Shown: positions 20,229 to 50,330, numbered from the stretch's first letter. The stretch is 64,000 nt of DNA from Dehalococcoidia bacterium UBA5760 (GCA_002418895.1 DIFA01000017.1:668-64667); one strand, 5' to 3'. A program made the numbers and translations. The notes: generated from the letters alone by a model not told the origin.

Positions 20229-20257
20229 ATTGACAGAATGGTATACTCTGAGTACTA
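20229..20257 (+). promoter_or_regulatory. candidate promoter for the KS/DegV transcription unit
   Basis: TTGACA (20229-20234), 17-nt spacer, TACTAT (20252-20257). An alternative extended -10, TGGTATACT, lies at 20238-20246. Confidence 0.4.
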
Positions 20258-20468
20258 TTAATGGTAGACTTTTTCGGTATGGAGAGTCCCTTCCCTATGT
20301 TCTATTGCTGTGGTCGGAGCGGTAAACGTGCAGGTTATTGCGGTAGGGCAGCTTTTCCTTGTCGTGGCGGGGTCTCTACGAATAAGGAATAGATAATTAC
20401 TGTCTAATATATAAATCCATCCTGCCAGTGCCGCTTAATTTATCAGTGTTAAGGAGAGGTAGCTTGAT

Positions 20469-21695
20469 ATGCAACGAGTAGTTATTACCGGGATGGGAGT
20501 GGTTTGCCCGATAGGATTGAGTATTGATAGTTACTGGACAAGTCTGGTGGAGGGGAAATCGGGGGTGGACTTTATCAGTCACTTCGATGCCAGCAACTAT
20601 CCGGTAAAATTGGCTGCCGAGGTAAAAGGATTCAACCCGGCAGACCATCTCGATTCCAAGATGGTGCAGCGCACGCCGAGGTGTGTTCACCTGGTTGTGC
20701 CGGCGCTTAGAGAGGCTGTGGCTCAAGCCGGATTGGATATGGCTGATGAGCAGCCGGAGCGTGTCGGTGTTATCGGTGCCAATATGCTGGAATATCAGTA
20801 CGTTGGCGAGGACTGGGAGAGGCTTAAGCAACGGGGGCCTAGGAGGGTTGATCCCCTGCTGTTTACCAAGGCAGGACCCAGTACGGTATCCCTCCAGGTG
20901 GGAATGCTGCTGGGGGCGAAAGGGCCCAACAGCACTGTGAATAGCCTTTGCGCCAGCGGCACCGATGTCATAGCCACTGCTCGTAACTTCATCCAGTTCG
21001 GCTATGCCGATGTGATGATCGCGGCGGCATCCGATGCTTCACTTAGTGAATTGGGTATCGCTTCTATCAGCTTGCTGGGGGCGCTGACTAAAGAACCGGA
21101 TCCGGATAAGGCCAGCCGGCCCTTTGACCTTAACCGCAACGGTTTTGTTTATGGGGAGGGGGCCGGAGTATTAGTCTTAGAAAGCCTGGAGCATGCCCGG
21201 AAGCGGGGGGTGCCGGTTCTGGCTGAGGTAGCCGGCGCCGGCTGGTCGTTTGATGCTTATGACGCCACTGCTCCCCAGCCGGAAACAGAGGCTGTCGCTA
21301 TGCGAAGTGCCCTTAAAAATGGTGGGGTAAGGCCGGAAGAGGTGGACTATATTAATGCCCATGGTACCAGCACCAAGCTGAATGACCGCAGTGAGACCGA
21401 AGCTATCAAGATGGTATTTGGTGAGCGGGCTTACCGGATACCGGTAAGCTCTTTCAAGTCTATGTTTGGCCATATGGTAACCGCCGCCGGTGCTGTTGAG
21501 GCTATTGGTGCGGTACTGGCCATCAATAATGCTACCATCCCGCCGACTATCCATTATGAGACCCCTGATCCGGAGTGTGACCTGGACTACGTGCCCAATG
21601 TGGCTCGTAAAGCCCGGATAGATGTCTGCTTGAAGAGCAGCTTCGGGCTCGGCGGTCAGAATTGCTGCCTGGTTCTCAAGAGATTTACGGAATAG
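20469..21695 (+). CDS. beta-ketoacyl-ACP synthase, KAS I/II (FabF-like) with intact Cys-His-His triad
   Basis: 408 aa. Active-site Cys in NSLCASGTD, His in NAHGTSTKLND and KSMFGHMVTAAG. Confidence 0.85.
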   Translation: MQRVVITGMGVVCPIGLSIDSYWTSLVEGKSGVDFISHFDASNYPVKLAAEVKGFNPADHLDSKMVQRTPRCVHLVVPALREAVAQAGLDMADEQPERVGVIGANMLEYQYVGEDWERLKQRGPRRVDPLLFTKAGPSTVSLQVGMLLGAKGPNSTVNSLCASGTDVIATARNFIQFGYADVMIAAASDASLSELGIASISLLGALTKEPDPDKASRPFDLNRNGFVYGEGAGVLVLESLEHARKRGVPVLAEVAGAGWSFDAYDATAPQPETEAVAMRSALKNGGVRPEEVDYINAHGTSTKLNDRSETEAIKMVFGERAYRIPVSSFKSMFGHMVTAAGAVEAIGAVLAINNATIPPTIHYETPDPECDLDYVPNVARKARIDVCLKSSFGLGGQNCCLVLKRFTE

Positions 21696-21744
21696 AGATA
21701 AGATAACCTTAACGCAGGGAATACAAAATAAGCGAGGTGCCAAT

Positions 21745-22614
21745 ATGGAGAAGGTAGTTATCAGTAGTGATTCGGGTACTATACTTCCGGAAGCGGCCAA
21801 AAATTACGGGTTTACCATGATCCCCGTCCCTATCATCATTGATGGTGAGACCTATCTGGACACAGAAATAAACATGGATGACCTCTATGCTCGCCTGGAT
21901 GGGAAGGAAAACCTGCCCAAGACTTCAACTGCTAATGTTGCCGAGTTTGCCCAGTTTTTTATCGACTTGGCCCGCAATACCGAGGCTATCCTGCATATCA
22001 GCATGTCATCGGTGTTTAGCGGCCATCACAACGCTGCTTTGCAGGGTAGGGAATTAGCCATTGAAAAGTTGTCCAATACCAGGATTGAGATAGTCGATTC
22101 GCTTACCATGGGGACTGGTGTTGCTCTGATTGCTATTCAGGCAGCCAGGGCGGCGGCGCAGGGTAAAAGTATGGATGACGTTATGAAACTGGTTGCCAGT
22201 ATCATCCCGCAGATGAAACTCTTTCTGGCTCGCGATACCCTGTTCTATCAGGCGGAGGGTGGCAGGATATTTGAAGCCAAGACCTGGGCCGAGGCCGAGC
22301 AGGCCACCAGCTTCAGGTCGATAACCGAGGTAGACTCGTCTACCGGTGGAGCGTTAAGGCCGGTTGCCAGGGCCAAGACGGTAGCCCAGATAATGGAGAA
22401 GCTCGTTGAGATAACTAGGGAGAAAGGTCAGGGTAGCAAACTGGTTGGTGTTATCGGTCATACTCGAGCACTGGAGCGTGCCGAGAAGCTAAGGGAAATG
22501 CTCCGCGCCGATCTCGATTTCGACTGGCTGGAGATTGCTGAGGAGTCGGCAAGCGCTGCCATACATACCGGTAAAGGGCTCATTGGTTACGGTTTTTGTA
22601 GCAAGCTTGATTAG
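21745..22614 (+). CDS. DegV family fatty-acid-binding protein (FakB-like)
   Basis: 289 aa. The N-terminus VVISSDSGTILPEAAKNYGFTMIPVPIIIDGETYLD is typical of DegV. Confidence 0.8.
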   Translation: MEKVVISSDSGTILPEAAKNYGFTMIPVPIIIDGETYLDTEINMDDLYARLDGKENLPKTSTANVAEFAQFFIDLARNTEAILHISMSSVFSGHHNAALQGRELAIEKLSNTRIEIVDSLTMGTGVALIAIQAARAAAQGKSMDDVMKLVASIIPQMKLFLARDTLFYQAEGGRIFEAKTWAEAEQATSFRSITEVDSSTGGALRPVARAKTVAQIMEKLVEITREKGQGSKLVGVIGHTRALERAEKLREMLRADLDFDWLEIAEESASAAIHTGKGLIGYGFCSKLD

Positions 22615-22684: not shown

Positions 22685-24550
22685 ATGCTCCCGCAGAGAA
22701 TTGCCTATCTGGATTTAGATATGAGGAAGGTCGAGGTTAAAGAGGTCCCCGAAGAAATCACCAGGAGGTTTCTCGGCGGCCGCGGAATTAATATCTATCT
22801 GCTCTATCACAGCGTTGGCCCCGAAACTCACCCGCTGTCTCCCCAGAACCCCCTTATTATCGGACCGGGGATGGTAACCGGACTGAAAGGGATAAGCGCT
22901 TCGAGGTGTAATATTTCGGGAAAGTCCCCCGAATCAGGATTGCTGGGCGATTCCAATATCGGTGGGTATTTCGGAGCTTTTATGAAGAGGACGGGTATCG
23001 ACTTCCTTTTTATCACTGGATCCTCCTCGAAACCGGTCTATATCTACCTGGATAAGGAAAGGATTAGCATTGAAGACGCTCGGGATCTGTGGGGAAAATC
23101 AACCACGGAAACCGATATGATTTTGTCAGAACGCTATGGCCCGGCTTGCCAATCCATCTCGATCGGGGTAGCTGGAGAAAACCTGGTGCGTTTTGCCTGC
23201 ATCATCAACCGGAAGAAGAATACTGCCGGCAGGACGGGCATGGGTTGTCTGATGGGGTCTAAGAAGATAAAGGCAATCGTGGTAAACGGTAAAGAGCCGG
23301 TAGAGCCGGAGGATGAGGCTGGATTTGATAGGTTAATGAGAGGGTTTCAGCAGGGGTTAAAAAAAGAGCCTCTGGTCAAATTGCTGGGGGAGTATGGTTC
23401 GTCTCTGCTCTATATCCTGGTCAACCGGCGAATCGGCATGGGCCGGTCGTATAACGGGCTCTCGACAAAATTCCCCGGAGGCGAGAATATTTCGCCCAAC
23501 ATACTGAAAGATAAATACTACACCGGGAAGGCCGGTTGCTATTCCTGTCCGGTCTCCTGTCACCACAAGTACCGGGTCGGTGAAATAGAGAGCGAAGGCC
23601 CGGAGTATTCTATTCTGGCCAGCTTCGGCCCGGTGGTGGGCATAAAGCGGTTGGAGGCGGTTCTTTATATCAATGACCTGATAAATCGCTATGGCCTGGA
23701 TTCCAGTTCTACGGCTAATCTCATCGCCTGGACAATCGAACTACTTAAGAGGGGCCTTATCGATCAAAGTGTGACCGATGGCCTCAGTCTTGACTGGGGA
23801 AACGAGGAAGCTATCATCGAGCTGATTCACCGGATTGCCCACCGAAAAGGTCTGGGTAACATTCTCGCTGACGGGGCCAGGGAGGCGGTAAGGTATTTCG
23901 GTGAAGAAACGGGCCGGTATCTTCTCTGGTCGAAGAATCTACCGCAGACCGACCCTGCTGATTTGAGGTATTTCCCTGCCTACGCCCTGGGCGATGCTAC
24001 CGCTTCGAGGGGGCCGGATCATTTAAGGAGCCGGCCTACCTGGGAGTCCTATCGACTTTCTGAAGAAACCCTGAGGGGTATCTACGGCGGTGATATTTCC
24101 GCCAATCCCCGCAGCTACCTGGGAAAGGGTAGGGTAATCTGGTGGTGGGAGACATACCTTTCCCTGTTCGATGCCCTGGGAATCTGTAAACTGATCGCTT
24201 TTCATTGCCAGCCCGGTCTTATTGATTTTGCCTTCTTCTCGGAACTGGTTCGCTGTGCCACGGGTATTGATTTGACGGCGGAGGAAATCTTTGCCGTCGG
24301 AGAGAGGATTGTCAACCTGGAGAGGATGTTCCTGGTCAGGGAGGGAATAAAGAGGAAGGATGACTTTCCTCCCCAGAGGTATTTTGAGCCTTTGGCCTGG
24401 CAGGACGGACTGAAGCCCGAAGAGAAGGACTTGAAGCTGGACAGGGCGGCTTTTGAGGGGATGCTCGATGAATATTACCGGCTCCGCGGTTGGGATAGCG
24501 AAGGCGTGCCGCTGTCTGGAACCAAAGAGCGTTTGGGTTTAGCACGATGA
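22685..24550 (+). CDS. aldehyde:ferredoxin oxidoreductase family protein (tungsto-/molybdopterin, 4Fe-4S), paralog 1
   Basis: 621 aa. The N-terminal AOR domain has RFLGGRGIN. The cluster ligands are CYSCPVSC (CxxCxxxC) plus a distal Cys in DALGICKL. Confidence 0.85.
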   Translation: MLPQRIAYLDLDMRKVEVKEVPEEITRRFLGGRGINIYLLYHSVGPETHPLSPQNPLIIGPGMVTGLKGISASRCNISGKSPESGLLGDSNIGGYFGAFMKRTGIDFLFITGSSSKPVYIYLDKERISIEDARDLWGKSTTETDMILSERYGPACQSISIGVAGENLVRFACIINRKKNTAGRTGMGCLMGSKKIKAIVVNGKEPVEPEDEAGFDRLMRGFQQGLKKEPLVKLLGEYGSSLLYILVNRRIGMGRSYNGLSTKFPGGENISPNILKDKYYTGKAGCYSCPVSCHHKYRVGEIESEGPEYSILASFGPVVGIKRLEAVLYINDLINRYGLDSSSTANLIAWTIELLKRGLIDQSVTDGLSLDWGNEEAIIELIHRIAHRKGLGNILADGAREAVRYFGEETGRYLLWSKNLPQTDPADLRYFPAYALGDATASRGPDHLRSRPTWESYRLSEETLRGIYGGDISANPRSYLGKGRVIWWWETYLSLFDALGICKLIAFHCQPGLIDFAFFSELVRCATGIDLTAEEIFAVGERIVNLERMFLVREGIKRKDDFPPQRYFEPLAWQDGLKPEEKDLKLDRAAFEGMLDEYYRLRGWDSEGVPLSGTKERLGLAR

Positions 24551-25542
24551 AGATAGCTGTTATTGGTGCCGGGGCGATCGGTGCGTTAGTAGCTGGTTAT
24601 CTCAGCAGGGAGGGGGTTGATGTTACTTTGGTCGGCAGGGCGAGTGATGTCCCTGTTATTAAGGACGACGGTCTTGCCATCGACGGAGTAAGAGGAAACA
24701 CAGTCGTTCCGGTGAAGGTGACCGATAAGCTCGAAAAGGGCTTTGGTCTGGTTATTCTGACGGTTAAAACGCAGGATATTAATTCGACTCTGAGCGGGAA
24801 TGTCAAGGCCCTGGGGAATGCTCCTCTCCTTACCGTGCAGAACGGCGTGAGGGCGGAGGAAATTATTCGGGGACTTATTCCCAAGGAGAATATCGTCAGC
24901 AGTATCGTTATGTTCGGGTCAACCTACCTTGAGGCGGGCAGGATTCTGCATAACTTTGAGGGGGACTGGGTAATCGGCAGGGCGTTTGCACCGAATAACG
25001 GGATTATTGACAGTATAGGTGACCTGCTGGCTGGTGCCTTCTCCGTCCGCATCACGGACAGGATAACAGGAATGAAGTGGCTGAAACTCTTCTTGAATTT
25101 GAATAATTGCCTGCCTGCCCTAACCGGGAGGAGTATGCAGGAAACGTTTTCCCATCCCGATATCTCCTGTTTGAGCATCCGTCTTCTGAGCGAGGCACTG
25201 TCGGCGGTAGACCGGGCGGGAATAGAGCTGGAGTCACTGCCGGACTTCCCTGTGGCAAGACTGCGGGCACTCACTACTATGCCGCTGGCGGAGGCGGGAG
25301 AGGTATTTTCTAAAACGATGACCAATCTGAGCCGGGAGCCGCTCTTCGGCTCTATCTTACAGAGCATCAAGAGGGGAAAACCGTCCGAGATTGATTATTT
25401 CAACGGAGAGATAGTGTATCTGGGGGAGAAGATAGGAGAGGATGTGACGCTGAATAAGAAGATGGTCGAGATGGTACACACGGTAGAGGAGAGCGGCAGG
25501 TTTCTCAGTCCGGGAGATATTCTAAATGAAATCGGGGGATAA
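24547..25542 (+). CDS. 2-dehydropantoate 2-reductase family (ApbA/PanE-like) NAD(P)H oxidoreductase
   Basis: 331 aa. Rossmann N-terminus MKIAVIGAGAIGALVAGYL. The start overlaps the AOR stop (ATGA). Confidence 0.7.
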   Translation: MKIAVIGAGAIGALVAGYLSREGVDVTLVGRASDVPVIKDDGLAIDGVRGNTVVPVKVTDKLEKGFGLVILTVKTQDINSTLSGNVKALGNAPLLTVQNGVRAEEIIRGLIPKENIVSSIVMFGSTYLEAGRILHNFEGDWVIGRAFAPNNGIIDSIGDLLAGAFSVRITDRITGMKWLKLFLNLNNCLPALTGRSMQETFSHPDISCLSIRLLSEALSAVDRAGIELESLPDFPVARLRALTTMPLAEAGEVFSKTMTNLSREPLFGSILQSIKRGKPSEIDYFNGEIVYLGEKIGEDVTLNKKMVEMVHTVEESGRFLSPGDILNEIGG

Positions 25543-25544
25543 GA

Positions 25545-26177
25545 ATGGCAGAAGATAGACCCAAATCAGCCGGGACATCTAAAGTCTCGGGAAAGACCAG
25601 GAAGAACTTTCACGATGTTCCTCTCTTGGTTACGGTGAGTAAGGTCAAGGAGGAGTGCTATCGGGGCTACAAGGAGGGTGATGCCTTTGTCTTCGAAGAC
25701 TTCACCAAGACGCCCCGTGGTTTTTGCCAGGGTGCCGCCGCCGTACTTTTTCCTTGCCTTTATGCCCTGACCTTCGGCGCGGAGTTTCAATTTGAAGGTA
25801 ATCCCCGCTCTATTCACACCACCTGTCCCGATGGTGGTAAGGTCGAGTTCTTCACCCAGGTGCTTACTCAATCTGGGGAAGTGGAAAAGGGTGAGAAGAA
25901 AGAGCATCACGGGCCGAGTCCCAAAAAGATGATTATCAGCGTGGAAGAGGTCAACGGGCACTGTGCCTACGATTACAAACCGGGGGACACTATTGAGGTA
26001 ACCGGACTCAGGACCCCCCAGGGTTTTTGTGGGGCTGCCTATAACGCCCTCTTCCCCGTCCTTTTCGCCCTTAATATGGGGGCTAAATTTTCCTTCTCAG
26101 AGGATCAGAATGCTAACCTGCGCGTGACCTGCCCCGATGGGGGAATAATCAGGTTTAAGGTAAGGAGGATCCAGTGA
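25545..26177 (+). CDS. Cys-rich protein made of two tandem copies of a ~85-aa domain ending in CPDGG (resembles TIGR04076-type small proteins)
   Basis: 210 aa. Repeat 1 is C..GY.EGD....GFCQGA...TCPDGGKVEF; repeat 2 is C..DY.PGD....GFCGAA...TCPDGGIIRF. The family assignment is from memory and was not searched. Confidence 0.55.
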   Translation: MAEDRPKSAGTSKVSGKTRKNFHDVPLLVTVSKVKEECYRGYKEGDAFVFEDFTKTPRGFCQGAAAVLFPCLYALTFGAEFQFEGNPRSIHTTCPDGGKVEFFTQVLTQSGEVEKGEKKEHHGPSPKKMIISVEEVNGHCAYDYKPGDTIEVTGLRTPQGFCGAAYNALFPVLFALNMGAKFSFSEDQNANLRVTCPDGGIIRFKVRRIQ

Positions 26178-27439
26178 TTAAGAGACGTGTGGTGGTTACC
26201 GGTCTGGGGGTTATTTCTCCTAACGGCATTGGTAAAGAGGCTTTCTGGAAAAATACGGTCACCGGCAAGTCGGGGGTAAGGCGGGTTACCGATTATGATG
26301 TCTCGCAATTCCGCTCTCAGATAGCCGCTCAGGTGGTTGACTTCGATCCCTTTGCCTTTGGCCTCAGTGGGGAGGAGGTGGAGAGGATGGACCGCTATGT
26401 ACAGTTTGCCGTGGCCGGGGCGGAGGCCGCTGTAGCTGATGCCAGGTTTGTTTTCGGTGATGAGATAAGAGAACGGACGGGGATCTGTCTCGCTAATGCT
26501 ATCTGCGGCACAAGATATATGGACGAAGAGTTCTTGAGGGTGACCAACGGCGGCAAAGACCCTATCGATCCCAAAAAGGTAAGGCCGCATCTTTATGATG
26601 CCTCCATGTTCAATACCCCTTCCAGTGAAATAGCGGCACGCTATCAATTAAAGAGTATTTGCGCCACCGTATCTACCGGTTGTACCGCCGGTACCGATGC
26701 CGTGGGTTTTGCCTATGAAGTTATCCAGGATGGGTTGGCCGATGTCATGATTACCGGTGCCGCTGAGGCGCCTCTCTGTCCGATAACCTTTGCTTCTTTT
26801 GATGTCTTGAATGTAATCTCAGCGAGAAACGGTGAGCCGGAAAAGGCTTCCCGGCCCTTCGATAAGGAGAGGGATGGGTTTGTCCTCTCTGAAGGGTGCG
26901 GCATTCTGGTTCTGGAGGAGCTGGGCCACGCCCTGAGCCGCGGCGCTCGTATCTACTGTGAAATCAAGGGTTTCGGCACCTGCTGCAATGCTTACCATAT
27001 GACCGACTTGCCTGCCGATGGTGATAGTATGGTCCCTTCTATCAAGCTTGCCTTAAATGATGCCGGGCTGCTCCCGGAGAAGATCGGGTATATCAATGCC
27101 CACGGGAGCTCCACCAGGCAGAATGACGTGTTCGAGACGAATGCCTATAAGAAGGTCTTTGGCAGCAGGGCTTACCAGATTCCGATAAGCTCTCTCAAGT
27201 CTATGATCGGTCATCCCCTGGCGGCCGCCAACAGCGTCGAGCTTGTTGCCGGTGCCCTTACCTTTGAGACCGATATCCTGCCGCCAACGATAAATCAGGA
27301 AGTTTCCGACCCGGATTGCGACCTGGACTATGTTGCCAACAAGGCTCGTGAAAAAAAGGTTGATTACATCTTGAAGACCAGCAGCGGTTTTTCCGGTGTC
27401 CATTCCTCAATGATACTGGGAAGGTGGAACTCTAATTGA
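26174..27439 (+). CDS. type II PKS ketosynthase alpha (KS-alpha)
   Basis: 421 aa, GTG start overlapping the upstream stop (GTGA). TVSTGCTAGTDAVG (Cys170), NAHGSSTRQND, SLKSMIGHPLAAAN. Confidence 0.85.
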   Translation: MIKRRVVVTGLGVISPNGIGKEAFWKNTVTGKSGVRRVTDYDVSQFRSQIAAQVVDFDPFAFGLSGEEVERMDRYVQFAVAGAEAAVADARFVFGDEIRERTGICLANAICGTRYMDEEFLRVTNGGKDPIDPKKVRPHLYDASMFNTPSSEIAARYQLKSICATVSTGCTAGTDAVGFAYEVIQDGLADVMITGAAEAPLCPITFASFDVLNVISARNGEPEKASRPFDKERDGFVLSEGCGILVLEELGHALSRGARIYCEIKGFGTCCNAYHMTDLPADGDSMVPSIKLALNDAGLLPEKIGYINAHGSSTRQNDVFETNAYKKVFGSRAYQIPISSLKSMIGHPLAAANSVELVAGALTFETDILPPTINQEVSDPDCDLDYVANKAREKKVDYILKTSSGFSGVHSSMILGRWNSN

Positions 27440-28647
27440 AAAAAGTGGCTGTTACCGGGTTAGGTATAGTAGCCCCTCCCGGAGTGGGCAAGGAAGAATT
27501 CTGGCAGAACATAAGGGAGGGGAAGTCATTCATTTCCCCTATTACCAGATTCGATGCTTCAGCCTATCCTTCACGGGTGGCCGGGCAGGTTAAAGAACTG
27601 GACACAGGTCACCTTTCTCCCCGTCTCTTGAAGAAGATGGACCGGTTCTCGGTGATGGCTCTGGTAGCTACCGGGCAGGCCCTGAAAGACGCCGGTATAG
27701 ATTTGGCTAAAGAAGACCCTTACAGCGTAGGCGTCTTCCTGGGCAATACACTGGGCGGGTGGCTTTATGCGGAGACAGAGCTGCGTGACCTCTACCAGGA
27801 AGGCAGGAATGGGGTAAGCCCTTATAACGCCAGCGCCTGGTTTGCCGCGGCTCCCCAGGGCCAAATCTCTATTTGTTACGGCGTCAAGGGGTATAGTAAG
27901 ACGGTAGTCGCCGACAGGGCCGGAGCTTTGATGGCTATTGGCTGTGCGGTAAGGGAAATCAGAAACAATAAAGCGGCCATTGCTCTGGCTGGAGGCACCG
28001 AAGCACCGGTTACTCCCTACGCATTGCTCTGCTGCACCACGGAGGGCTCTCTTTCCGGGGGTACTTATCGACCATTCGATAAGGAAAGGGATGGTTTTGT
28101 TATCGGTGAAGGGGCGGCGATCATAACCCTGGAGGATATGGATTCCGCTCGAAGCAGGGGGGCGACTGTCTACGGGTCGATTACTGGCTTCGGAACTTCC
28201 TGTGATGGCACTCACCGTATCACGCCGGATCAGGATGGTAGAGGGTTGACCAGGGCGATAAAGACTGCCCTGGACGGTGCCGGTTATCAGCCCGGTGATA
28301 TTGATTATATTTGTGCCGATGGAGCGGCAACCGAACTGGGGGATGTCAGCGAAACAAGAGCAATCAAGGCGGTATTCGGCAGTTATGCGGCGGAAATACC
28401 GGTCAGCGCCCCGAAGTCCATGTTCGGACACCTGCTGGGGGCATCCGGTGCCATTGACCTGGTCGGCACTCTGCTGACTATGCAGGAGGGGGTTATTCTG
28501 CCCACGATAAATTACCGGACGGAGGACCCGGAGTGCAATCTGGACTATGTGCCGAATAAATGTAGGTCTAAAGAGGTTAATCGTGCCATTGTCATCTCGC
28601 GCGGTCGCGGAGGCATAAATGCCGTTTTGGCTGTAGAAAGGAGTTAG
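27436..28647 (+). CDS. type II PKS ketosynthase beta / chain-length factor (non-canonical: Arg at the Cys/Gln position)
   Basis: 403 aa. The TTG start overlaps the KS-alpha stop. TVVADRAGALMAIG aligns residue-for-residue with KS-alpha TVSTGCTAGTDAVG. The first His is lost (CADGAATELGD) and the second is retained (KSMFGHLLGASG). Confidence 0.8.
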   Translation: MKKVAVTGLGIVAPPGVGKEEFWQNIREGKSFISPITRFDASAYPSRVAGQVKELDTGHLSPRLLKKMDRFSVMALVATGQALKDAGIDLAKEDPYSVGVFLGNTLGGWLYAETELRDLYQEGRNGVSPYNASAWFAAAPQGQISICYGVKGYSKTVVADRAGALMAIGCAVREIRNNKAAIALAGGTEAPVTPYALLCCTTEGSLSGGTYRPFDKERDGFVIGEGAAIITLEDMDSARSRGATVYGSITGFGTSCDGTHRITPDQDGRGLTRAIKTALDGAGYQPGDIDYICADGAATELGDVSETRAIKAVFGSYAAEIPVSAPKSMFGHLLGASGAIDLVGTLLTMQEGVILPTINYRTEDPECNLDYVPNKCRSKEVNRAIVISRGRGGINAVLAVERS

Positions 28648-28652
28648 CGGTT

Positions 28653-28889
28653 ATGGCGAATATCGAAGAAAGGGTGCAGGATTTTTTCGCCAAGTTCCTT
28701 GACCTGAGTCCTGCCGAGATTACTCCGCAGGTTAACCTGAGGGATGATCTTCAGATGGACTCAACGGAAATGGTGGAGCTGGTGGTGGCTTTAGAAAAAG
28801 AGTTCAATATCCATCTCAAGGATGGTGAGATTACCAACAGGAATTGCTTCGGCGACGTGTTAAAGACCGTTGGAGAGAAGCTGGGATAA
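28653..28889 (+). CDS. acyl carrier protein
   Basis: 78 aa. The phosphopantetheine Ser lies in DDLQMDSTEMVELVVALEKEF. Confidence 0.85.
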   Translation: MANIEERVQDFFAKFLDLSPAEITPQVNLRDDLQMDSTEMVELVVALEKEFNIHLKDGEITNRNCFGDVLKTVGEKLG

Positions 28890-29692
28890 TGAGAATTATT
28901 GACCTGAGTCTCCCCATCGATGACGGTGTTTTTGAGCCCCACCCGGTAAAGATAAAGAGGTGGGGACATCGGGATGGCGGAGACCGTTTCGGCCGGATTT
29001 GGGCGAAGTCTCACGGGATAAGAGGAATTCTGGGCTATATTACGGGACGGGAGCGGATTACGCGTAATTCCTTCAGGGACGGTGCCTTCCTGTCCCTGGA
29101 GTGGGTCAGGGCGGCGGTCCATAGCGGCACTCACCTTGATGCGCCCTATCATTTCGGGCCTATTTCGGAAGGAAAAGAGGCCAAGAAGATAGAGGATATA
29201 CCCGTTGAGTGGTGCTATGGGAACGGTGTCGTCCTGGACTGTTCTCAAAAAGAGCCCGGAGGGCTTATTGTCAGGGAGGATGTAGAGCGAGCGCTCGACA
29301 GCATTCGGCATGAGATAAAGCCCATGGATATCGTCCTTATCCGTACCGGCGGCGATAAGTTATGGGGAACTCGGAAATACTACTCCCATTTTGTCGGGGT
29401 GAGCCGGGAGGCGCTTGCCTATATTCTGGACTTCAAGGTAAAGGTGGTCGGGATTGATACCTTTAGCTTTGACCGTCCGCTCAGCAGGATGGTGACTGAT
29501 TTTCTAAAGACGAAGGATAATGCTCACCTCTGGCCGGCCCACTTCTACGGTAGGGAAAAGGAGTACTGTCACATCGAGAGGCTGGCCAACCTGGATAAGA
29601 TTCCCTCGTATGGTTTCCGGCTGGCCTGTTTCCCGATAAAGATAAAAGGGGTAGGTGCCGCTGCGGTAAGAGCGGTTGCCATTATTGAATAA
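28889..29692 (+). CDS. metal-dependent 'putative cyclase' family protein (kynurenine-formamidase-like fold)
   Basis: The track ORF starts at 28844, but MRIIDLSLPI at the ATG at 28889 overlaps the ACP stop (TAATG). Signature HSGTHLDAPYHF. Confidence 0.75.
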   Translation: MRIIDLSLPIDDGVFEPHPVKIKRWGHRDGGDRFGRIWAKSHGIRGILGYITGRERITRNSFRDGAFLSLEWVRAAVHSGTHLDAPYHFGPISEGKEAKKIEDIPVEWCYGNGVVLDCSQKEPGGLIVREDVERALDSIRHEIKPMDIVLIRTGGDKLWGTRKYYSHFVGVSREALAYILDFKVKVVGIDTFSFDRPLSRMVTDFLKTKDNAHLWPAHFYGREKEYCHIERLANLDKIPSYGFRLACFPIKIKGVGAAAVRAVAIIE

Positions 29693-29706
29693 ATAAGGAG
29701 GCAAGA

Positions 29707-30153
29707 ATGGGACATACGGTAAACTCTATTCTGATCGAGGCGCCTTACGATCGGGTCTTCGATATCTCCAACGATATCGGGCGGTGGACGGAGTTGTTCG
29801 GCGGTGAGTACAAAGAGGCCAGGGTGCTGAAACGGGAGGGGAACAAAATCACCTTCCAGTTGACCGATAATGAAGGTAATTCCTGGCAGTCCTTCCGTCT
29901 CCTCTTTAAGGATTATTACTTTACCTATGCCCAGAAGATGGAGCCGGCATTTCCCTTCAAGTATATGAAGATTATCTGGCTCTATACCCCTACCCCGGCA
30001 GGAGTAAAGCTGACCTGGGTGCAGGATTTTACCATGGCGGACGGAGCCAAGTTTAACGACGAACAGGTTGAAGGCTTCATCAACAAGCATTCCCGGGATA
30101 ATCTGCAGATATTCAAGAGTGTGATAGAGAAAGAAGCAGGGAGTAAGAGATGA
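29707..30153 (+). CDS. SRPBCC-fold polyketide aromatase/cyclase (monodomain ARO/CYC, TcmN/ZhuI-like)
   Basis: 148 aa. HTVNSILIEAPYDRVFDISNDIGRWTELF... has the typical Polyketide_cyc2 N-terminus and size. Confidence 0.7.
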   Translation: MGHTVNSILIEAPYDRVFDISNDIGRWTELFGGEYKEARVLKREGNKITFQLTDNEGNSWQSFRLLFKDYYFTYAQKMEPAFPFKYMKIIWLYTPTPAGVKLTWVQDFTMADGAKFNDEQVEGFINKHSRDNLQIFKSVIEKEAGSKR

Positions 30154-30923
30154 GCGAACTGAAGGGTAAGACGGCTATCGTTACTGGGGCAAGTCGGGGT
30201 ATCGGCGGAGCGCTGGGGATGGCGCTGGCAAAAGAGGGGATGGACCTGGTGCTTGCCGCACGCGGCCGGGCGGTGCTCGAAGAGACCGCCGCGGGGCTGT
30301 CCCGTAAATATAATGTGCGGGTAGTTCCGGTAGCCTGTGATGTTACCCGGCAGGGCGACCTGGAGAATCTGGCCGCTACTGCTATCAAGGAGTTCAATAA
30401 GATAGATGCCCTGATCAACAGCGCCGGGGTAAGCAGCCAGTACCCCTTTCAGGAGCAGCCGCTCGAAGACATCGCCAGGCTGATGTATACCAATTACTTC
30501 GGGGCGGTGATGCTGACCCGCCTCATGATCAACCACTTTATCGAAAACAAGAGCGGCGCCGTTATCAATATTACCTCCGGCTCAACCCTGGTAGACCCGC
30601 CGCCGAGAAACTTTATCGTTTATTCCTCTCTGAAGCGGGCGCTGAATGCTTTTAGCAAGGGGCTTTTCTGGGAGTTGAGGGACCAGGGTATCAAGGTAAC
30701 CTCGATTATGCCCGGGGTTACCGATACCGCCCTGACCGGAGGGCTTGCCGAGATTTCAGTGGACCGTTCGCGTCTGATGCAGACCGGGGTGATAGAGGAT
30801 GCCGTCAAGTTCGCTCTCTCCGTACCGGCCAATGTCTGTCCTCTGGAGATTTCGGTTATCAACCAGCGCACCCCCTGGACGAGTCCGGTAATTCCATACC
30901 GACAGGACCATCCCAAAGAATGA
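30150..30923 (+). CDS. SDR-family ketoreductase
   Basis: 257 aa. TGASRGIGGALG, NSAG, and the catalytic YSSLK. The start overlaps the upstream stop (ATGA). Confidence 0.85.
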   Translation: MSELKGKTAIVTGASRGIGGALGMALAKEGMDLVLAARGRAVLEETAAGLSRKYNVRVVPVACDVTRQGDLENLAATAIKEFNKIDALINSAGVSSQYPFQEQPLEDIARLMYTNYFGAVMLTRLMINHFIENKSGAVINITSGSTLVDPPPRNFIVYSSLKRALNAFSKGLFWELRDQGIKVTSIMPGVTDTALTGGLAEISVDRSRLMQTGVIEDAVKFALSVPANVCPLEISVINQRTPWTSPVIPYRQDHPKE

Positions 30924-31840
30924 TGTTTGATGCGCATATTCACTGGCTGCCCGGGGAGATTATCGAAAATGCCCACTTTTACTCTGCCGCCTGGGGTAGT
31001 ATCGAGGGTCAGCTTGAGGTCATGGACAAATTTCACATCGATAAGACCCTCATCGTTTATCCGACCAATGATGCCTACCGGAAGATGGGGGGACTCGGAG
31101 AGGTTGCCCGGCTCTACAATGACCGCATAGCCGGGGTGGTGGGAAGATACCCGGAGCGGTTCGTCGGAGCGGCTATCCTGCCGGTCGATGAGCCGGAAGA
31201 GATGGCCAGAGAGTTCGAGCGGGTAACCAAGGGCCTGGGGTTCAGGGCCCTTTCCCTGGCGACCAGCTTTGACGGCATATACCTGGATGATGAGCGGTTT
31301 TGCCATCTCTATGAGGAGGCGGAGTCGCTTAATATCCCCATCTTTGTTCATCCCCAGACGATAAATCCGATAGGCTACGAGCGGATAAAGGACCCCCTGC
31401 TTACTCCTGTCATCGAGTTCGTCTTCGATACCACCATCTGCATCGGCAAGCTGATTATGGCGGGTACGCTCAGGCGGTTCCCCAACCTCAAATTTATCTT
31501 TGCTCATTTCGGGGGCGTCACCCCCTTTATCAAGGAAAGGTTCGACAGCATATACCGGATGCTCAGAGGCAGAGATATCGTTAAGGACCTCTTTGCCCTG
31601 CCCGGCGAGTATCTGAGGCGGATATATGTGGATACCAGCGGCGTTACCTCCAGTCATGCTCTCATGTGTACCCTGGAGATGGTGGGTGCGGAGCATATTC
31701 TGTGGGGCAGCGACTACCCGGGTAACCCCGACATACCGGCCTCGATCAACGCCATCGAGAAACTCGATATTCCTGCCCGTGAAAAGGCGAAGATACTGGG
31801 GGCAAACATGGAGCGGGTGCTGTCCGGGGCAATCACCTGA
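30920..31840 (+). CDS. amidohydrolase_2 (ACMSD/LigW-type) family metal-dependent hydrolase/decarboxylase
   Basis: 306 aa. N-terminal DAHIH metal motif, later VHPQ, FAHFGG and WGSDYP. Overlaps the KR stop. Confidence 0.7.
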   Translation: MMFDAHIHWLPGEIIENAHFYSAAWGSIEGQLEVMDKFHIDKTLIVYPTNDAYRKMGGLGEVARLYNDRIAGVVGRYPERFVGAAILPVDEPEEMAREFERVTKGLGFRALSLATSFDGIYLDDERFCHLYEEAESLNIPIFVHPQTINPIGYERIKDPLLTPVIEFVFDTTICIGKLIMAGTLRRFPNLKFIFAHFGGVTPFIKERFDSIYRMLRGRDIVKDLFALPGEYLRRIYVDTSGVTSSHALMCTLEMVGAEHILWGSDYPGNPDIPASINAIEKLDIPAREKAKILGANMERVLSGAIT

Positions 31841-31858: not shown

Positions 31859-32731
31859 CTAGCTGTCCTTACGCAGGTATTTATCTACCAGCAGCTTGAG
31901 TTTTTCCTTCTGTTCGGGCGGTATCGAGGCGGGATCGGTGACAATCGCTGTCTTCAGGGCGGTGGTGCAGTCGCAGTGGCGTTCGTGCGGTATCCTGGCG
32001 GCGGTTACTCTGATGATTTCCCTGATCTTGTCGTTGTTCTGCTTCAGTGTCTCTATGATGATATCAATCGGGGTCGGCTTATCGTGTTTCTGCCAGCAGT
32101 CGTAGTCGGTGATGCTGACGATAGCGGCGTAGCATATTTCGGCTTCCCGGGCCAGCTTGGCTTCGGGTGAGGCGGTCATACCGATGACATCGCTCCCCCA
32201 GGAGCGGTAGAGGTTTGATTCGGCTCTGGTGGAGAAAGCTGGGCCCTCCATCGCCAGATAGGTCCCGCCCCGGTGGATGGCAGCTCCGGCCTCCTTTGCT
32301 GTCCGGTAAAGAAGCTGGCTCAGTACCGGGCAGAATGGCTCGGCAAAGATGATGTGGGCAACGATGCCGCCGCTGAAGAAGGAGCTTGCCCGGTTGCGGG
32401 TGCGGTCGATAAGCTGGTCGGGGATGACCAGCTCGCCGGGTTTGAACTCCTGATTGAGGCTGCCGGCGGCGTTCACCGAGATTATCCACTCCACTCCCAG
32501 AGACTTCAGGGCGTAGATATTGGCCCGGTAGGGTACCTCGCCGGGGGAGAGGTGGTGCCCCTTGCCGTGACGGGGCAGGAAGGCAACCGCAGTCCCTTCC
32601 AGATGCCCGGTGGTGATGGTGTCACTCGGCCTGCCGAAAGGCGTCTCAATATCAACCTCTGCGATATCAGTCAGCCCTTTGATATGATAGAGCCCGCTGC
32701 CTCCGATTACTCCGATTTTCGCCTCCGGCAT
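31859..32731 (-). CDS. mtnP: S-methyl-5'-thioadenosine phosphorylase
   Basis: 290 aa. The N-terminus KIGVIGGSGLY and an overall PNP/MTAP pattern. The ATG shares one base with the stop of the upstream RM gene. Confidence 0.9.
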   Translation of the reverse strand: MPEAKIGVIGGSGLYHIKGLTDIAEVDIETPFGRPSDTITTGHLEGTAVAFLPRHGKGHHLSPGEVPYRANIYALKSLGVEWIISVNAAGSLNQEFKPGELVIPDQLIDRTRNRASSFFSGGIVAHIIFAEPFCPVLSQLLYRTAKEAGAAIHRGGTYLAMEGPAFSTRAESNLYRSWGSDVIGMTASPEAKLAREAEICYAAIVSITDYDCWQKHDKPTPIDIIIETLKQNNDKIREIIRVTAARIPHERHCDCTTALKTAIVTDPASIPPEQKEKLKLLVDKYLRKDS

Positions 32732-35691: not shown

Positions 35692-35739
35692 ACCCTGTAA
35701 CTGCCTTTATTATGAGATGGCAAGGTCGGTGTCATTCGC

Positions 35740-35768
35740 AGTATAAATAGTTCTTGTTCCGTTGTCCA
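35740..35768 (-). promoter_or_regulatory. candidate promoter for the RM-mtnP unit (TGGACA-N17-TATACT)
   Basis: On the minus strand, -35 TGGACA is at 35768-35763, the spacer is 17 nt, and -10 TATACT is at 35745-35740. This is about 50 nt upstream of the RM ATG. Confidence 0.4.
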
Positions 35769-35863
35769 GTATCGCGGCTGATATCCGGAATCCGGGTGCC
35801 TAAAATGTCATCTTAATGCGGCCTGGCTGCAGACAGTGACGTATCGGTGGCGGGGGTAATGGT

Positions 35864-36904: not shown

Positions 36905-36945
36905 TCTGGCCTTCTCGTGAACTTCCTTTGCCGGAGTAAGTTTTC

Positions 36946-50013: not shown

Positions 50014-50288
50014 AGGTTAAGGTGAAGTTTTTTGCTTCCTTGACGGAAGTATTCGGTGATAGGGAGCGTGAGGTTGAATTGGGGGAGGGAGCTCGCATAA
50101 AGGACCTTTTGGATGCTTTGTGTGATTCATCCAGGTGTCGACAGAATGTGTTCGATGATTCCGGCAAGATTAAGATGCGTATTCAGATAATGAAGAACCG
50201 CATGCCCATTCAATCTTTTGATGGGATTAGTACCAGGCTTGAGGAAGGGGATGTCATCTCGATTATCCCGCCTATGTTTGCCGGTTGA
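50010..50288 (+). CDS. MoaD/ThiS-family ubiquitin-like sulfur-carrier protein (C-terminus Ala-Gly)
   Basis: 92 aa. MKVKVKFFASLTEVFG... beta-grasp pattern, ending ...DVISIIPPMFAG. The start overlaps the ThiF-like stop. Confidence 0.7.
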   Translation: MKVKVKFFASLTEVFGDREREVELGEGARIKDLLDALCDSSRCRQNVFDDSGKIKMRIQIMKNRMPIQSFDGISTRLEEGDVISIIPPMFAG

Positions 50289-50330
50289 CTGGCCGTCAGT
50301 CATAAATAAATAACTCAAGGAGGACTGTTG

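What the first reader, a model, noticed from the sequence alone, without database searches (positions are those of the whole stretch)
22685..25542. A tungsten/molybdenum-type aldehyde:ferredoxin oxidoreductase and a PanE-like reductase head the PKS operon
Seen in sequence: the AOR (CxxCxxxC cluster motif CYSCPVSC, 621 aa) stop overlaps the start of a Rossmann-fold ApbA/PanE-family reductase. That reductase is 2 nt from the next gene, which overlaps KS-alpha. All of these are therefore almost certainly co-translated with the PKS.

Established knowledge: AOR enzymes interconvert aldehydes and non-activated carboxylic acids using ferredoxin.

Inference: an acid-to-aldehyde-to-alcohol redox couple (AOR plus NAD(P)H reductase) may act on the polyketide's terminal carboxylate or on the starter unit. 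I am not aware of an AOR being part of a characterised type II PKS cluster.
Basis: partly seen in the sequence, partly recalled or inferred. Interest (0 to 1): 0.6.

Follow-up and report, generated by a model that had tools for sequence, protein, structure and literature searches.

The report
Tungsten-type oxidoreductase in anaerobe polyketide operon
A tungsten/molybdenum-type oxidoreductase and a PanE-like reductase are conserved members of a ten-gene aromatic polyketide gene set shared by uncultured anaerobes of several phyla, but the oxidoreductase lacks two catalytic residues of classical aldehyde oxidoreductases, so its chemistry is probably new.

Summary
An AOR-family gene (22685-24550), a PanE/ApbA reductase, a double TIGR04076 protein, KS-alpha, CLF, ACP, two cyclases, a KR and an Amidohydro_2 decarboxylase-like gene run from 22685 to 31840. 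No gap exceeds 14 nt.

The same cassette, with different flanks, occurs in Dehalococcoidales, Ca. Desulfofervidus auxilii, Thermodesulfobacteriota, Nitrospirota and other MAGs. An AOR is present in 21 of 25 informative loci. AOR divergence tracks KS-alpha/CLF divergence (r 0.96/0.91). None of 79 generic AOR loci carries these partners.

PanE and TIGR04076 are present at every locus that covers their position. They persist without the AOR and are sometimes fused to each other. In one lineage the AOR sits next to the decarboxylase instead. So "AOR plus PanE as an acid-to-aldehyde-to-alcohol couple" is only partly supported.

The whole AOR subfamily replaces Glu313 and Tyr427 of P. furiosus AOR, while keeping His448 and the four cluster cysteines.

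The D. auxilii cluster has been listed as a type II PKS cluster without a product. I found no paper linking an AOR to a type II PKS.

Verdict: a real, conserved, uncharacterised redox tailoring enzyme of an anaerobe-type aromatic PKS. It is a new variant of a known kind.

The parts
22685..24550 (+). AOR/WOR-family oxidoreductase, single large subunit (621 aa). Predicted W/Mo-bis-pyranopterin plus one [4Fe-4S]. Belongs to a subfamily without Glu313 and Tyr427.
   Evidence: PF02730 and PF01314. Best solved relative is P. furiosus AOR 1AOR, 318 bits. Cys285/288/292/501 and His446 are kept. Ser309 stands for Glu313 and Thr422 for Tyr427. Orthologues sit in the same cassette in other phyla.
24547..25542 (+). 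PanE/ApbA-family NAD(P)H-dependent reductase (331 aa). Its start overlaps the AOR stop (ATGA).
   Evidence: PF02558 and PF08546; TIGR00745 at 154 bits, above its cut-off. Best PDB hits are ketopantoate reductases 5HWS and 5AYV. N-terminal GAGAIG. Asn99, Lys180, Ser269 and Glu281 are invariant in 14 cassette copies. Present in all cassettes that cover this position.
25545..26177 (+). Tandem TIGR04076 protein (210 aa, two repeats, each with three conserved Cys and a CPD motif). Lies 2 nt after PanE and overlaps KS-alpha.
   Evidence: TIGR04076, two stretches; no Pfam hit. 274 homologues found. AlphaFold model pLDDT 91.6 with no PDB fold match at E<=1e-3. Fused to PanE in proteins of about 535 aa.
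26174..27439 (+). Ketosynthase alpha (421 aa) with active-site Cys (VSTGCTAGTD) and both His.
   Evidence: PF00109 and PF02801. Best PDB hits are actinorhodin KS 1TQY (388 bits) and AntD 6SMO (388 bits), above FabF (352 bits). Sequence.
27436..28647 (+). KS-beta / chain-length factor (403 aa). Arg stands at the Cys/Gln position (VVADRAGAL).
   Evidence: The position is Arg, Lys or Ile in relatives.
28653..28889 (+). Acyl carrier protein (78 aa, DS motif).
   Evidence: Translation. PF00550 is annotated on the orthologues.
28889..29692 (+). PF04199 'cyclase'-family metal hydrolase or cyclase.
   Evidence: Best PDB hits are isatin hydrolase and kynurenine formamidase.
29707..30153 (+). SRPBCC polyketide cyclase/aromatase-like protein.
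   Evidence: PF03364 and PF10604.
30150..30923 (+). SDR ketoreductase.
   Evidence: PF00106 and PF08659.
30920..31840 (+). Amidohydro_2 enzyme resembling non-oxidative aromatic-acid decarboxylases.
   Evidence: PF04909. Best PDB hits are LigW 5-carboxyvanillate decarboxylase, ACMSD and gamma-resorcylate decarboxylase.

Best explanation
The AOR-family gene is a genuine, long-standing member of a horizontally mobile type II (aromatic) polyketide cassette found in strict anaerobes. The cassette order is AOR, PanE-like reductase, double TIGR04076, KS-alpha, CLF, ACP, PF04199 cyclase, SRPBCC cyclase, (KR), Amidohydro_2.

The AOR is a single-subunit enzyme with a tungsten- or molybdenum-pyranopterin and one [4Fe-4S] cluster. 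It belongs to an uncharacterised subfamily. Inferred role: a low-potential, ferredoxin-linked two-electron redox tailoring step on the polyketide or its acid/aldehyde precursor, a step that aerobic producers would do with O2-dependent or NAD(P)H enzymes. The most likely site is a carboxyl- or aldehyde-level carbon. The altered active site (Glu313 to Ser, Tyr427 to Thr) means the chemistry need not be classical aldehyde oxidation.

The PanE-like reductase and the TIGR04076 protein form a separate obligate module that works with KS-alpha/CLF whether or not the AOR is present. They are not simply the AOR's downstream partner.

Shown: gene content, coupling, synteny, co-divergence and residue changes. 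Inferred: substrate, direction and electron donor.

My odds: AOR belongs to the pathway, about 0.85. It acts at acid/aldehyde level, about 0.4. AOR and PanE act consecutively as acid to aldehyde to alcohol, about 0.2.
For: 1. Anatomy. There are overlapping or near-abutting stops and starts from 22685 to 31840, with no excess of promoter or terminator signals.

2. Synteny with unrelated flanks. The cassette occurs in:
- Ca. Desulfofervidus auxilii CP013015 (L001; AOR 72%, KS-alpha 80% identical)
- Dehalococcoidales MAGs (L003, L005, L010, L012, L014, L015, L025)
- a 'Syntrophobacter' MAG (L013)
- Thermodesulfobacteriota (L017, L022, L139)
- Nitrospirota (L026, L028-L030, L033, L034, L036)
- L138
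. An AOR is present in 21 of 25 loci where the contig allows a judgement.

3. Co-divergence. Pairwise identities of AOR against KS-alpha give r=0.96 and against CLF r=0.91 over 16 loci. No permutation of 2000 reached the observed value.

4. Specificity. None of 79 generic AOR loci (32-44% identical) from metagenomes has PanE, TIGR04076 or KS nearby. In the AOR tree the PKS-linked copies fill one super-clade.

5. Cofactor sites are intact. Four cluster Cys and His448 are invariant in 138 subfamily members. MoeA is present in the MAG.

6. Acid-level chemistry is plausible. A sister AOR (L008) is followed by an AMP-binding/alcohol-dehydrogenase fusion. In the AOR-less Omnitrophota locus L024 an AMP-binding acid ligase lies two genes upstream of PanE, near the slot the AOR holds elsewhere.

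7. PanE and TIGR04076 are a separate module. They are present at every locus that covers their position. They are fused in proteins of about 535 aa and in ORFs of 470 and 575 aa. The PanE catalytic-type residues are invariant.

8. The cassette is accessory. It is found in 11 of 301 genomes of the order and in 7 of 15 of the genus.
Against: - There is no transcript, protein, metal or product data. No RNA run was found.
- Four cassettes lack any AOR (L020, L024, L047/L021, probably L018), so the step is dispensable or replaceable.
- Glu313 and Tyr427 are never present in the subfamily, so acid/aldehyde chemistry is an extrapolation. Both are treated as conserved catalytic second-shell residues of aldehyde-oxidising AORs (PMC12096430, PMC13328260).
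- No ferredoxin gene lies in the cassette.
- Non-PKS members are nested in the same AOR super-clade (L006 group) and beside it (L008, L140). Subfamily membership alone therefore does not predict a PKS role.
- The conserved decarboxylase-like gene may remove the very carboxylate the AOR was proposed to reduce.
- MoaA was not found in the MAG, which is only 64% complete.
Confidence: 0.55

Rival explanations
1. AOR and the PanE-like reductase act consecutively. AOR reduces the free carboxylate of the polyketide (or a starter acid) to an aldehyde with reduced ferredoxin. PanE then reduces the aldehyde to an alcohol with NAD(P)H.
For: - AOR stop and PanE start overlap, or lie within about 120 nt, in clade A, Nitrospirota and Thermodesulfobacteriota cassettes.
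- A sister AOR is paired with an AMP-binding/alcohol-dehydrogenase fusion (L008).
- AORs are known to reduce non-activated acids (PMC12096430).
Against: - PanE is present without AOR in L020, L024 and L047.
- In L138 the AOR lies next to Amidohydro_2, between it and a B12-radical-SAM gene; whether L138 has a PanE could not be seen, because the locus starts inside the TIGR04076 gene.
- PanE fuses with TIGR04076, not with AOR.
- The PanE family acts on 2-oxo acids and ketones rather than aldehydes, and its catalytic residues are unchanged.
- Glu313 and Tyr427 are lost in the AOR.
- A conserved decarboxylase-like gene competes for the carboxylate.
Confidence: 0.2
2. The AOR belongs to a SAM by-product salvage module, not to polyketide tailoring. 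The cluster uses B12-radical-SAM enzymes, which release 5'-deoxyadenosine. Neighbouring MtnP-like, MtnA-like and class II aldolase genes would convert this to DHAP plus acetaldehyde, and the AOR would oxidise the aldehyde.
For: PNP_UDP_1 and IF-2B (MtnA-like) genes flank the cassette in several loci:
- the window (31859-32731 and 35864-37039, minus strand)
- L009, L010 and L025
- L017, L020, L022 and L138, where they lie on the same strand, in two of them with a class II aldolase (L020, L138) and in L138 also an aldehyde dehydrogenase, DeoC and an ADH.
Against: - The AOR is retained where no such genes lie within 10 kb (L001, L003, L005, all Nitrospirota loci).
- L020 has the salvage genes but no AOR.
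- The AOR is coupled to PanE/KS or to Amidohydro_2, not to the salvage genes.
- A canonical AOR with Glu313 exists elsewhere in the window (50328-52217).
- The non-canonical active site argues against plain acetaldehyde oxidation.
Confidence: 0.1
3. The AOR-family enzyme does non-aldehyde chemistry on the aromatic scaffold. Candidates are water-dependent oxidation or hydroxylation (for example at an anthrone-type CH2) or reductive dehydroxylation or dearomatisation. It would stand in for the O2-dependent tailoring oxygenases of aerobic producers.
For: - Glu313 and Tyr427 are replaced throughout the subfamily, while cofactor ligands and His448 are kept.
- Subfamily members co-occur with other oxygen-independent tailoring enzymes. 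These are Peptidase_U32 (UbiU/V-like) genes in all Nitrospirota cassettes and three copies in L140, B12-radical-SAM genes in most cassettes, and FMN reductase and amine-oxidase-like flavoproteins.
- The family already includes a ring reductase, BamB.
Against: - The protein is closer to P. furiosus AOR (318 bits) than to BamB (195 bits).
- No precedent exists for hydroxylation by this family.
- The argument rests only on residue loss and gene neighbourhood.
Confidence: 0.15

Closest known systems
Predicted type II PKS cluster of Candidatus Desulfofervidus auxilii, listed among non-actinobacterial type II PKS clusters by Cummings et al. 2019 (PLoS Biol, PMC6638757)
   Same: The same ten genes occur in the same order (L001). 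Identities to the window proteins are AOR 72%, PanE 63%, TIGR04076 73%, KS-alpha 80% and CLF 74%.
   Different: - D. auxilii adds an amine-oxidase-like flavoprotein, an FMN reductase and a B12-radical-SAM gene directly upstream of the AOR.
- The paper tested only KS/CLF solubility in E. coli; three other pairs proved soluble and this one is not among them.
- A search of the paper's supplementary files found no mention of 'aldehyde', and the passages I read name no product.
Pyrococcus furiosus aldehyde:ferredoxin oxidoreductase (PDB 1AOR), a Class I single-subunit WOR
   Same: Same two Pfam domains and same length. It is the best solved relative (318 bits). Cys288, 291, 295 and 494 and His448 are conserved, and Thr243 is conservatively Ser.
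   Different: Glu313 becomes Ser and Tyr427 becomes Thr. Across the subfamily these positions are Gly/Ser/Thr/Ala and Ser/Thr/Leu. The gene sits in a biosynthetic cassette, not in peptide or amino-acid catabolism.
Minimal aromatic PKSs with solved KS/CLF structures: actinorhodin (1TQY) and Photorhabdus anthraquinone AntDE (6SMO)
   Same: KS-alpha scores higher against these than against FabF. The set KS-alpha/CLF/ACP, SRPBCC cyclase, second cyclase and KR is the standard aromatic PKS set.
   Different: - The CLF has Arg, Lys or Ile, not Gln, at the active-site position.
- No priming KSIII, acyltransferase or phosphopantetheinyl transferase gene is in the cassette.
- The cassette adds AOR, PanE-like, TIGR04076 and a decarboxylase-like gene.
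- The hosts are strict anaerobes.
Ketopantoate reductase PanE/ApbA (for example T. kodakarensis 5HWS, E. coli 1KS9)
   Same: Same fold family, above the TIGR00745 cut-off. It has the Rossmann GxGxxG motif. Asn, Lys, Ser and Glu are conserved at positions that I recall as catalytic in E. coli KPR.
   Different: - All equivalog models score below their cut-offs.
- It is always next to TIGR04076 and KS-alpha and is sometimes fused to TIGR04076.
- D. auxilii has another, better-scoring ApbA paralogue elsewhere.
- It is therefore probably not the CoA-pathway enzyme.
AOR / acyl-adenylate ligase / Zn-dehydrogenase triad in envelope-glycan loci (sister AOR clade, L008)
   Same: It belongs to the same Glu313-less AOR subfamily (48% identical) and is coupled to acid- and alcohol-level enzymes and a B12-radical-SAM gene.
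   Different: It has no KS/CLF, PanE or TIGR04076, and is embedded among glycosyltransferase and lipid A acyltransferase genes.

Membership tests
AOR/WOR family (tungsten/molybdenum bis-pyranopterin oxidoreductases) | AFOR_N (PF02730) plus AFOR_C (PF01314) domains over the full length | tested here: met
   6e-70 and 5e-97, both far above the gathering scores.
AOR/WOR family (tungsten/molybdenum bis-pyranopterin oxidoreductases) | Four Cys ligands of the [4Fe-4S] cluster (CxxCxxxC plus a distal Cys in the DxxGxC pterin motif) | tested here: met
   Cys285, 288, 292 and 501 align with Pf AOR Cys288, 291, 295 and 494. They are invariant in all aligned relatives.
AOR sensu stricto (aldehyde-oxidising Class I WORs) | Second-shell residues Thr243, Glu313, Tyr427 and His448 (Pf numbering; PMC12096430, PMC13328260) | tested here: not met
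   Ser239 (conservative) and His446 are kept. Glu313 becomes Ser309 and Tyr427 becomes Thr422. In 138 subfamily members Glu and Tyr never occur at these columns.
AOR sensu stricto (aldehyde-oxidising Class I WORs) | Ferredoxin-dependent aldehyde oxidation or acid reduction; W or Mo content | not testable with these tools
   Needs anoxic enzymology and metal analysis.
BamB-type dearomatising reductases | Closer sequence kinship to BamB than to AOR or FOR | tested here: not met
   BamB 4Z3W scores 195 bits against 318 bits for Pf AOR. The second AOR of L022 is likewise closer to AOR.
Type II (aromatic) polyketide synthase cluster | KS-alpha with Cys-His-His, paired and translationally coupled with a KS-beta lacking the Cys, plus a discrete ACP | tested here: met
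   KS-alpha has VSTGCTAGTD, INAHGSST and MIGHPL. The CLF has Arg at the Cys position. The ACP has the DS motif. KS-alpha is closest to act KS and AntD.
Type II (aromatic) polyketide synthase cluster | CLF active-site Gln (decarboxylative priming) | tested here: not met
   Arg in the window; Lys or Ile in relatives.
Type II (aromatic) polyketide synthase cluster | Aromatase/cyclase genes in the cluster | tested here: met
   PF03364/PF10604 SRPBCC and PF04199 cyclase.
Type II (aromatic) polyketide synthase cluster | An aromatic polyketide product | not testable with these tools
   No product is known for any member of this cassette.
Ketopantoate reductase (PanE/ApbA) family | ApbA N- and C-terminal domains, a score above the TIGR00745 cut-off, and conserved Asn/Lys/Ser/Glu active-site positions | tested here: met
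   The mapping to E. coli Asn98, Lys176, Ser244 and Glu256 is from memory.
Ketopantoate reductase (PanE/ApbA) family | Being the CoA-pathway 2-dehydropantoate reductase (equivalog level) | tested here: inconclusive
   All equivalog models score below their cut-offs. D. auxilii has a second, stronger ApbA paralogue. In this incomplete MAG and in Omnitrophota bin103 the cassette copy is the only strong hit.

The most novel reading that the evidence does not exclude
A whole, uncharacterised subfamily of tungsten/molybdenum AOR-family enzymes (Glu313- and Tyr427-less) may serve biosynthesis rather than catabolism. In this cassette it would be the oxygen-independent tailoring oxidoreductase of an aromatic polyketide. 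It would work with U32-type hydroxylases, B12-radical-SAM methylases and a decarboxylase to build a conserved hydroxylated or quinone-like, possibly membrane-exported aromatic molecule in strict anaerobes of five or more phyla. Those anaerobes include the syntrophic partner bacterium Ca. Desulfofervidus. The TIGR04076/PanE module would be a new obligate accessory of the ketosynthase.
Probability: 0.15. Interest if true: 0.85.

Novelty: new variant of a known kind. Interest (0 to 1): 0.62.

Why it matters
Aromatic (type II) polyketide chemistry is known almost entirely from aerobic actinomycetes, where tailoring depends on O2-dependent oxygenases. This cassette shows how strict anaerobes equip the same core synthase. 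They use a tungsten/molybdenum-pterin enzyme, a PanE-like reductase, a protein of unknown fold, a non-oxidative decarboxylase and, in many lineages, B12-radical-SAM and U32-type enzymes.

According to the abstract of a 2026 classification (PMC13328260), only five of 92 WOR/AOR clades have a defined physiological role. A biosynthetic role would be a new one. The loss of Glu313 and Tyr427 gives a concrete handle for mechanistic work.

The cassette moves between phyla as a unit. It occurs in environmentally important uncultured groups: Dehalococcoidales, the methane-oxidation partner Ca. Desulfofervidus, Nitrospirota and Omnitrophota. Its product may therefore have an ecological or physiological role worth finding.

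Tried and rejected
- RNA evidence. No RNA run holds the window stretch. Co-transcription therefore remains untested.
- Two look-ups by exact protein failed, because my CLF coordinates for L020 and L022 were not the called genes.
- The metagenome scan with the AOR alignment picked family-wide patterns. It returned mostly distant AORs (32-44% identical). I used them as a negative control rather than as a census of the subfamily.
- Fold search of the TIGR04076 model against the PDB gave nothing at E<=1e-3. A sequence search of the PDB also gave nothing meaningful.
- BamB-like ring reductase identity was considered for both the window AOR and the second AOR of Thermodesulfobacteriota cassettes. 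I rejected it on score ranking.
- Chance adjacency of a housekeeping AOR is rejected by synteny, co-divergence and the control set.
- The upstream FabF-like KS plus DegV as part of the conserved cassette is rejected. They precede the AOR only in the closest relatives (L010, L025) and are absent elsewhere.
- Cofactor supply. MoeA was found, but MoaA was not, in a MAG that is only 64% complete. This is uninformative.


Full report
**1. Observation**

The ORF at 22685-24550 (+, 621 aa) carries both AOR-family domains: PF02730 at 6e-70 and PF01314 at 5e-97. It contains CYSCPVSC at residues 285-292.

Its stop overlaps the start of a 331-aa ApbA/PanE-family protein by ATGA. That protein matches PF02558 and PF08546, and TIGR00745 at 154 bits against a cut-off of 141.

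Two bases later a 210-aa protein starts. It has no Pfam hit but two TIGR04076 repeats. Its stop overlaps the GTG start of KS-alpha.

Downstream follow CLF, ACP, a PF04199 cyclase, an SRPBCC cyclase, an SDR ketoreductase and an Amidohydro_2 protein. All are separated by -4 to +14 nt.

A consensus scan finds no more promoter- or terminator-like sites than shuffled sequence gives.

Two things remain open:
- Transcription itself is untested, because no public RNA run holds this stretch.
- The true operon start is uncertain. A FabF-like KS and a DegV gene lie upstream on the same strand, and the best promoter-like site is at 20230-20258.

**2. Where it comes from**

The window is contig 8 of a 1.2-Mb MAG that is 64% complete. 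The nearest database proteins are named Dehalococcoidales bacterium. Near-identical DNA occurs in hydrocarbon, groundwater, landfill and sediment metagenomes. The rest of the window is housekeeping: SAM cycle, histidine and purine genes.

**3. Is the AOR/PanE-PKS link real?**

- I looked up the contexts of AOR homologues.
- I scanned 185,579 species genomes with a CLF alignment, then ran tblastn with all window proteins against the 57 loci held by then.

The cassette falls into lineages.

- Clade A (CLF at least 69% identical). Members are Dehalococcoidales, Ca. Desulfofervidus auxilii and a 'Syntrophobacter' MAG. The ten genes are in identical order. An AOR is present in all ten distinct loci whose upstream DNA is on the contig.
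- Nitrospirota (CLF 46-49%). The order is AOR (about 50% identical), PanE, TIGR04076 (mostly called as two genes of about 90 aa), KS-alpha, CLF, ACP, two cyclases, FMN reductase, Amidohydro_2 and amine-oxidase-like genes. This holds in seven genomes. All seven are preceded by PadR, a Peptidase_U32 gene and a small 80-aa gene.
- Thermodesulfobacteriota (L017, L022, L139). The AOR is at the head, and a second, divergent 661-aa AOR sits before Amidohydro_2.
- L138. The order is TIGR04076, KS-alpha, CLF, ACP, cyclases, MFS, KR, B12-radical-SAM, AOR, Amidohydro_2. Here the AOR occupies a different slot.
- Omnitrophota, Planctomycetia and 'Deltaproteobacteria' loci (L018, L020, L024, L047/L021). PanE, TIGR04076 and KS-alpha are present, but no AOR.

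Overall, 21 of 25 informative loci carry an AOR. Flanking genes differ between lineages, so the unit is the cassette, not the neighbourhood.

Four further results bear on the link.
- Co-divergence. Over 16 loci, AOR pairwise identity correlates with KS-alpha (r=0.96) and CLF (r=0.91). None of 2000 permutations reached the observed value.
- Horizontal transfer as a unit. The Chloroflexota window and D. auxilii share 72-80% identity in these proteins.
- Control. 79 generic AOR loci from metagenomes (32-44% identical) contain no PanE, TIGR04076 or KS/CLF.
- Distribution. Within the order, the cassette marker is in 11 of 301 species genomes, and in 7 of 15 of the genus. That is accessory, patchy behaviour.

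**4. What the AOR is**

It is a single-subunit ('Class I') family member. Its best solved relative is P. furiosus AOR (318 bits), ahead of FOR, Aromatoleum AOR, WOR5 and BamB (195 bits).

The four [4Fe-4S] cysteines and His448 are conserved, and Thr243 is Ser. But Glu313 is Ser309 and Tyr427 is Thr422.

In 138 relatives at least 44% identical, the Glu313 column is Gly, Thr, Ser or Ala, and the Tyr427 column is Ser, Thr or Leu. Neither is ever Glu or Tyr. The other AOR of the window (50328-52217, beside a ThiF gene) keeps PEFE.

Two recent reviews treat Thr243, Glu313, Tyr427 and His448 as the conserved second shell of aldehyde-oxidising AORs, and build the proposed proton relay on Glu313 and His448 (PMC12096430, PMC13328260).

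I therefore file the protein in the AOR/WOR family, but not as an AOR sensu stricto. Acid/aldehyde chemistry is an inference for it, not a given.

The subfamily's tree shows the following:
- The PKS-linked copies fill one super-clade.
- A non-PKS group (L006) is nested inside it.
- A non-PKS lineage (L140) branches at its base: AOR with three U32 genes and two B12-radical-SAM genes.
- A non-PKS sister clade is represented by L008: AOR with an AMP-binding/ADH fusion and a B12-radical-SAM gene among glycan genes.

So the subfamily as a whole keeps company with oxygen-independent biosynthetic enzymes.

**5. What PanE and TIGR04076 are**

The PanE-like protein keeps the nucleotide-binding motif. 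Asn99, Lys180, Ser269 and Glu281 are invariant in 14 cassette copies. From memory, these match E. coli KPR Asn98, Lys176, Ser244 and Glu256.

It occurs in every cassette that covers its position, with or without an AOR. Ca. D. auxilii also has a separate, better-scoring ApbA paralogue.

PanE and TIGR04076 are fused in proteins of about 535 aa from Omnitrophota, in a 470-aa ORF in L015 and in a 575-aa frame in another Dehalococcoidales genome.

The TIGR04076 didomain has 274 homologues. Each repeat has three invariant Cys and a CPD motif. Its confident AlphaFold model (pLDDT 91.6) has no PDB fold match.

Hence PanE and TIGR04076 form a module of their own, tied to KS-alpha. The AOR is an add-on placed in front of that module in most lineages.

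**6. The rest of the pathway**

- KS-alpha is closest to actinorhodin KS and Photorhabdus AntD, above FabF.
- The CLF has Arg, Lys or Ile at the Gln position.
- The last gene resembles LigW, ACMSD and gamma-resorcylate decarboxylases. This points to decarboxylation of an ortho-hydroxy aromatic acid.
- No acyltransferase, KSIII, thioesterase or phosphopantetheinyl transferase gene is in the cassette.
- Lineage-specific additions include B12-radical-SAM, FMN reductase, amine-oxidase-like flavoproteins, U32 genes, an MFS transporter, and MMPL plus LolA-like exporters.
- In L024 an AMP-binding acid ligase lies two genes upstream of PanE (ligase, small 94-aa gene, PanE), near the slot the AOR holds elsewhere. 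This hints that a free carboxylic acid is a pathway substrate.

**7. Mechanism and rivals**

Best explanation (confidence 0.55 overall). The AOR is a cassette-dedicated, ferredoxin-linked W/Mo redox tailoring enzyme. PanE and TIGR04076 form an independent obligate module.

My odds on the separate steps:
- The AOR belongs to the pathway: about 0.85.
- It works at acid/aldehyde level: about 0.4.
It is weakened by PanE's independence, the L138 arrangement, the fusions, the altered active site and the decarboxylase.

A salvage rival gets about 0.1. In it the AOR oxidises acetaldehyde from 5'-deoxyadenosine recycling. It is suggested by MtnP-like, MtnA-like and aldolase genes beside several cassettes, including the window. 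But AOR and salvage genes occur independently of each other.

A non-aldehyde role on the aromatic ring gets about 0.15. It is the most novel reading that the data leave open.

**8. Known or new**

The D. auxilii cluster appears in a 2019 list of non-actinobacterial type II PKS clusters. Its KS/CLF pair was among seven tested for solubility in E. coli, and it is not among the three reported soluble. No product or AOR role is given in the passages I read.

Catalogues of KS/CLF diversity report such clades without discussing accessory genes. Full-text searches found nothing relevant:
- No paper combines AOR with type II PKS or KS/CLF.
- The 2026 KS evolution paper does not contain the words 'oxidoreductase' or 'anaerob', or the phylum names I searched for.
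- The 2026 WOR classification does not mention polyketides.

Earlier notes of this scan on other genomes independently saw an AOR heading a PKS operon, and an AOR/ligase/dehydrogenase triad in glycan loci. These are leads that agree with my results, not evidence.

Verdict: a real and conserved feature, and a new variant of a known kind of system. It has an enzymologically interesting twist and an unknown product.

Noticed in passing
window 25545-26177: Tandem TIGR04076 protein. A confident AlphaFold model (pLDDT 91.6) has no PDB fold match. Each repeat has three invariant Cys plus a CPD motif. It is fused to the PanE-like reductase in some genomes (proteins of about 535 aa). Possibly a metal or Fe-S protein, of unknown function.
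   Followed up: partly
window 27436-28647: The CLF has Arg (VVADRAGAL) where canonical CLFs have the decarboxylating Gln. Orthologues have Lys or Ile. How the chain is primed is unclear, and no KSIII or acyltransferase gene is in the cassette.
   Followed up: partly
window 31859-37039 (minus strand): An MtnP-like phosphorylase (PNP_UDP_1) and an MtnA-like isomerase (IF-2B) lie just downstream of the cassette, split by a 986-aa Eco57I-type restriction-modification gene. MtnA-like genes recur beside related cassettes in other phyla (L017, L020, L022, L138). MtnP-like genes were confirmed in L020 and L022, and class II aldolase genes in L020 and L138. This may reflect recycling of radical-SAM by-products, or a metabolic link.
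   Followed up: partly
window 49267-52217: A second, canonical AOR (629 aa, keeps the Glu313 equivalent in PEFE) lies directly after a ThiF/MoeB-like gene. A 2026 classification describes this arrangement for Class I WORs (PMC13328260).
   Followed up: partly
window 20469-22614: A FabF-like KS with an intact Cys, plus DegV, lie just upstream of the AOR and divergent from plsY. DegV precedes the AOR only in the closest relatives (L010, L025), and the FabF-like KS is found only in L010. They are probably a lipid module, not part of the conserved cassette.
   Followed up: partly
L047 and L021 (Omnitrophota bin103, CP070837): The cassette is split between two places about 550 kb apart. PanE, TIGR04076 and KS-alpha are at one. 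CLF, ACP, cyclases, MFS, KR, B12-radical-SAM and Amidohydro_2 are at the other.
   Followed up: no
L017 7914-9899; L022 13266-15251; L139 14791-16770: Thermodesulfobacteriota cassettes carry a second, divergent AOR-family gene (about 660 aa, 32% identical to the window AOR) just before Amidohydro_2. It is closer to P. furiosus AOR than to BamB.
   Followed up: partly
L007 9750-9992; L006 9732-9992; L024 6432-6716; also L018, L047, L138, L140: A conserved small gene or domain of 80-94 aa (weak DUF2621/PCP_red similarity) directly precedes the AOR, or precedes PanE where the AOR is absent. In L138 the matching stretch lies within the coordinates of the B12-radical-SAM gene just upstream of the AOR, so it may be fused to it.
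   Followed up: no
L007 7858-9264 and the other Nitrospirota loci; L140 909-7995: Peptidase_U32 genes sit next to AORs of this subfamily. This is the family of the oxygen-independent hydroxylases UbiU and UbiV. One copy precedes every Nitrospirota cassette. Three copies, one with an SCP2 domain, accompany a non-PKS AOR in L140.
   Followed up: no
L139 501-3850; L022 36-2627: MMPL-type transporter and LolA-like genes head some cassettes. This suggests the product is exported to the envelope, as a lipid would be.
   Followed up: no
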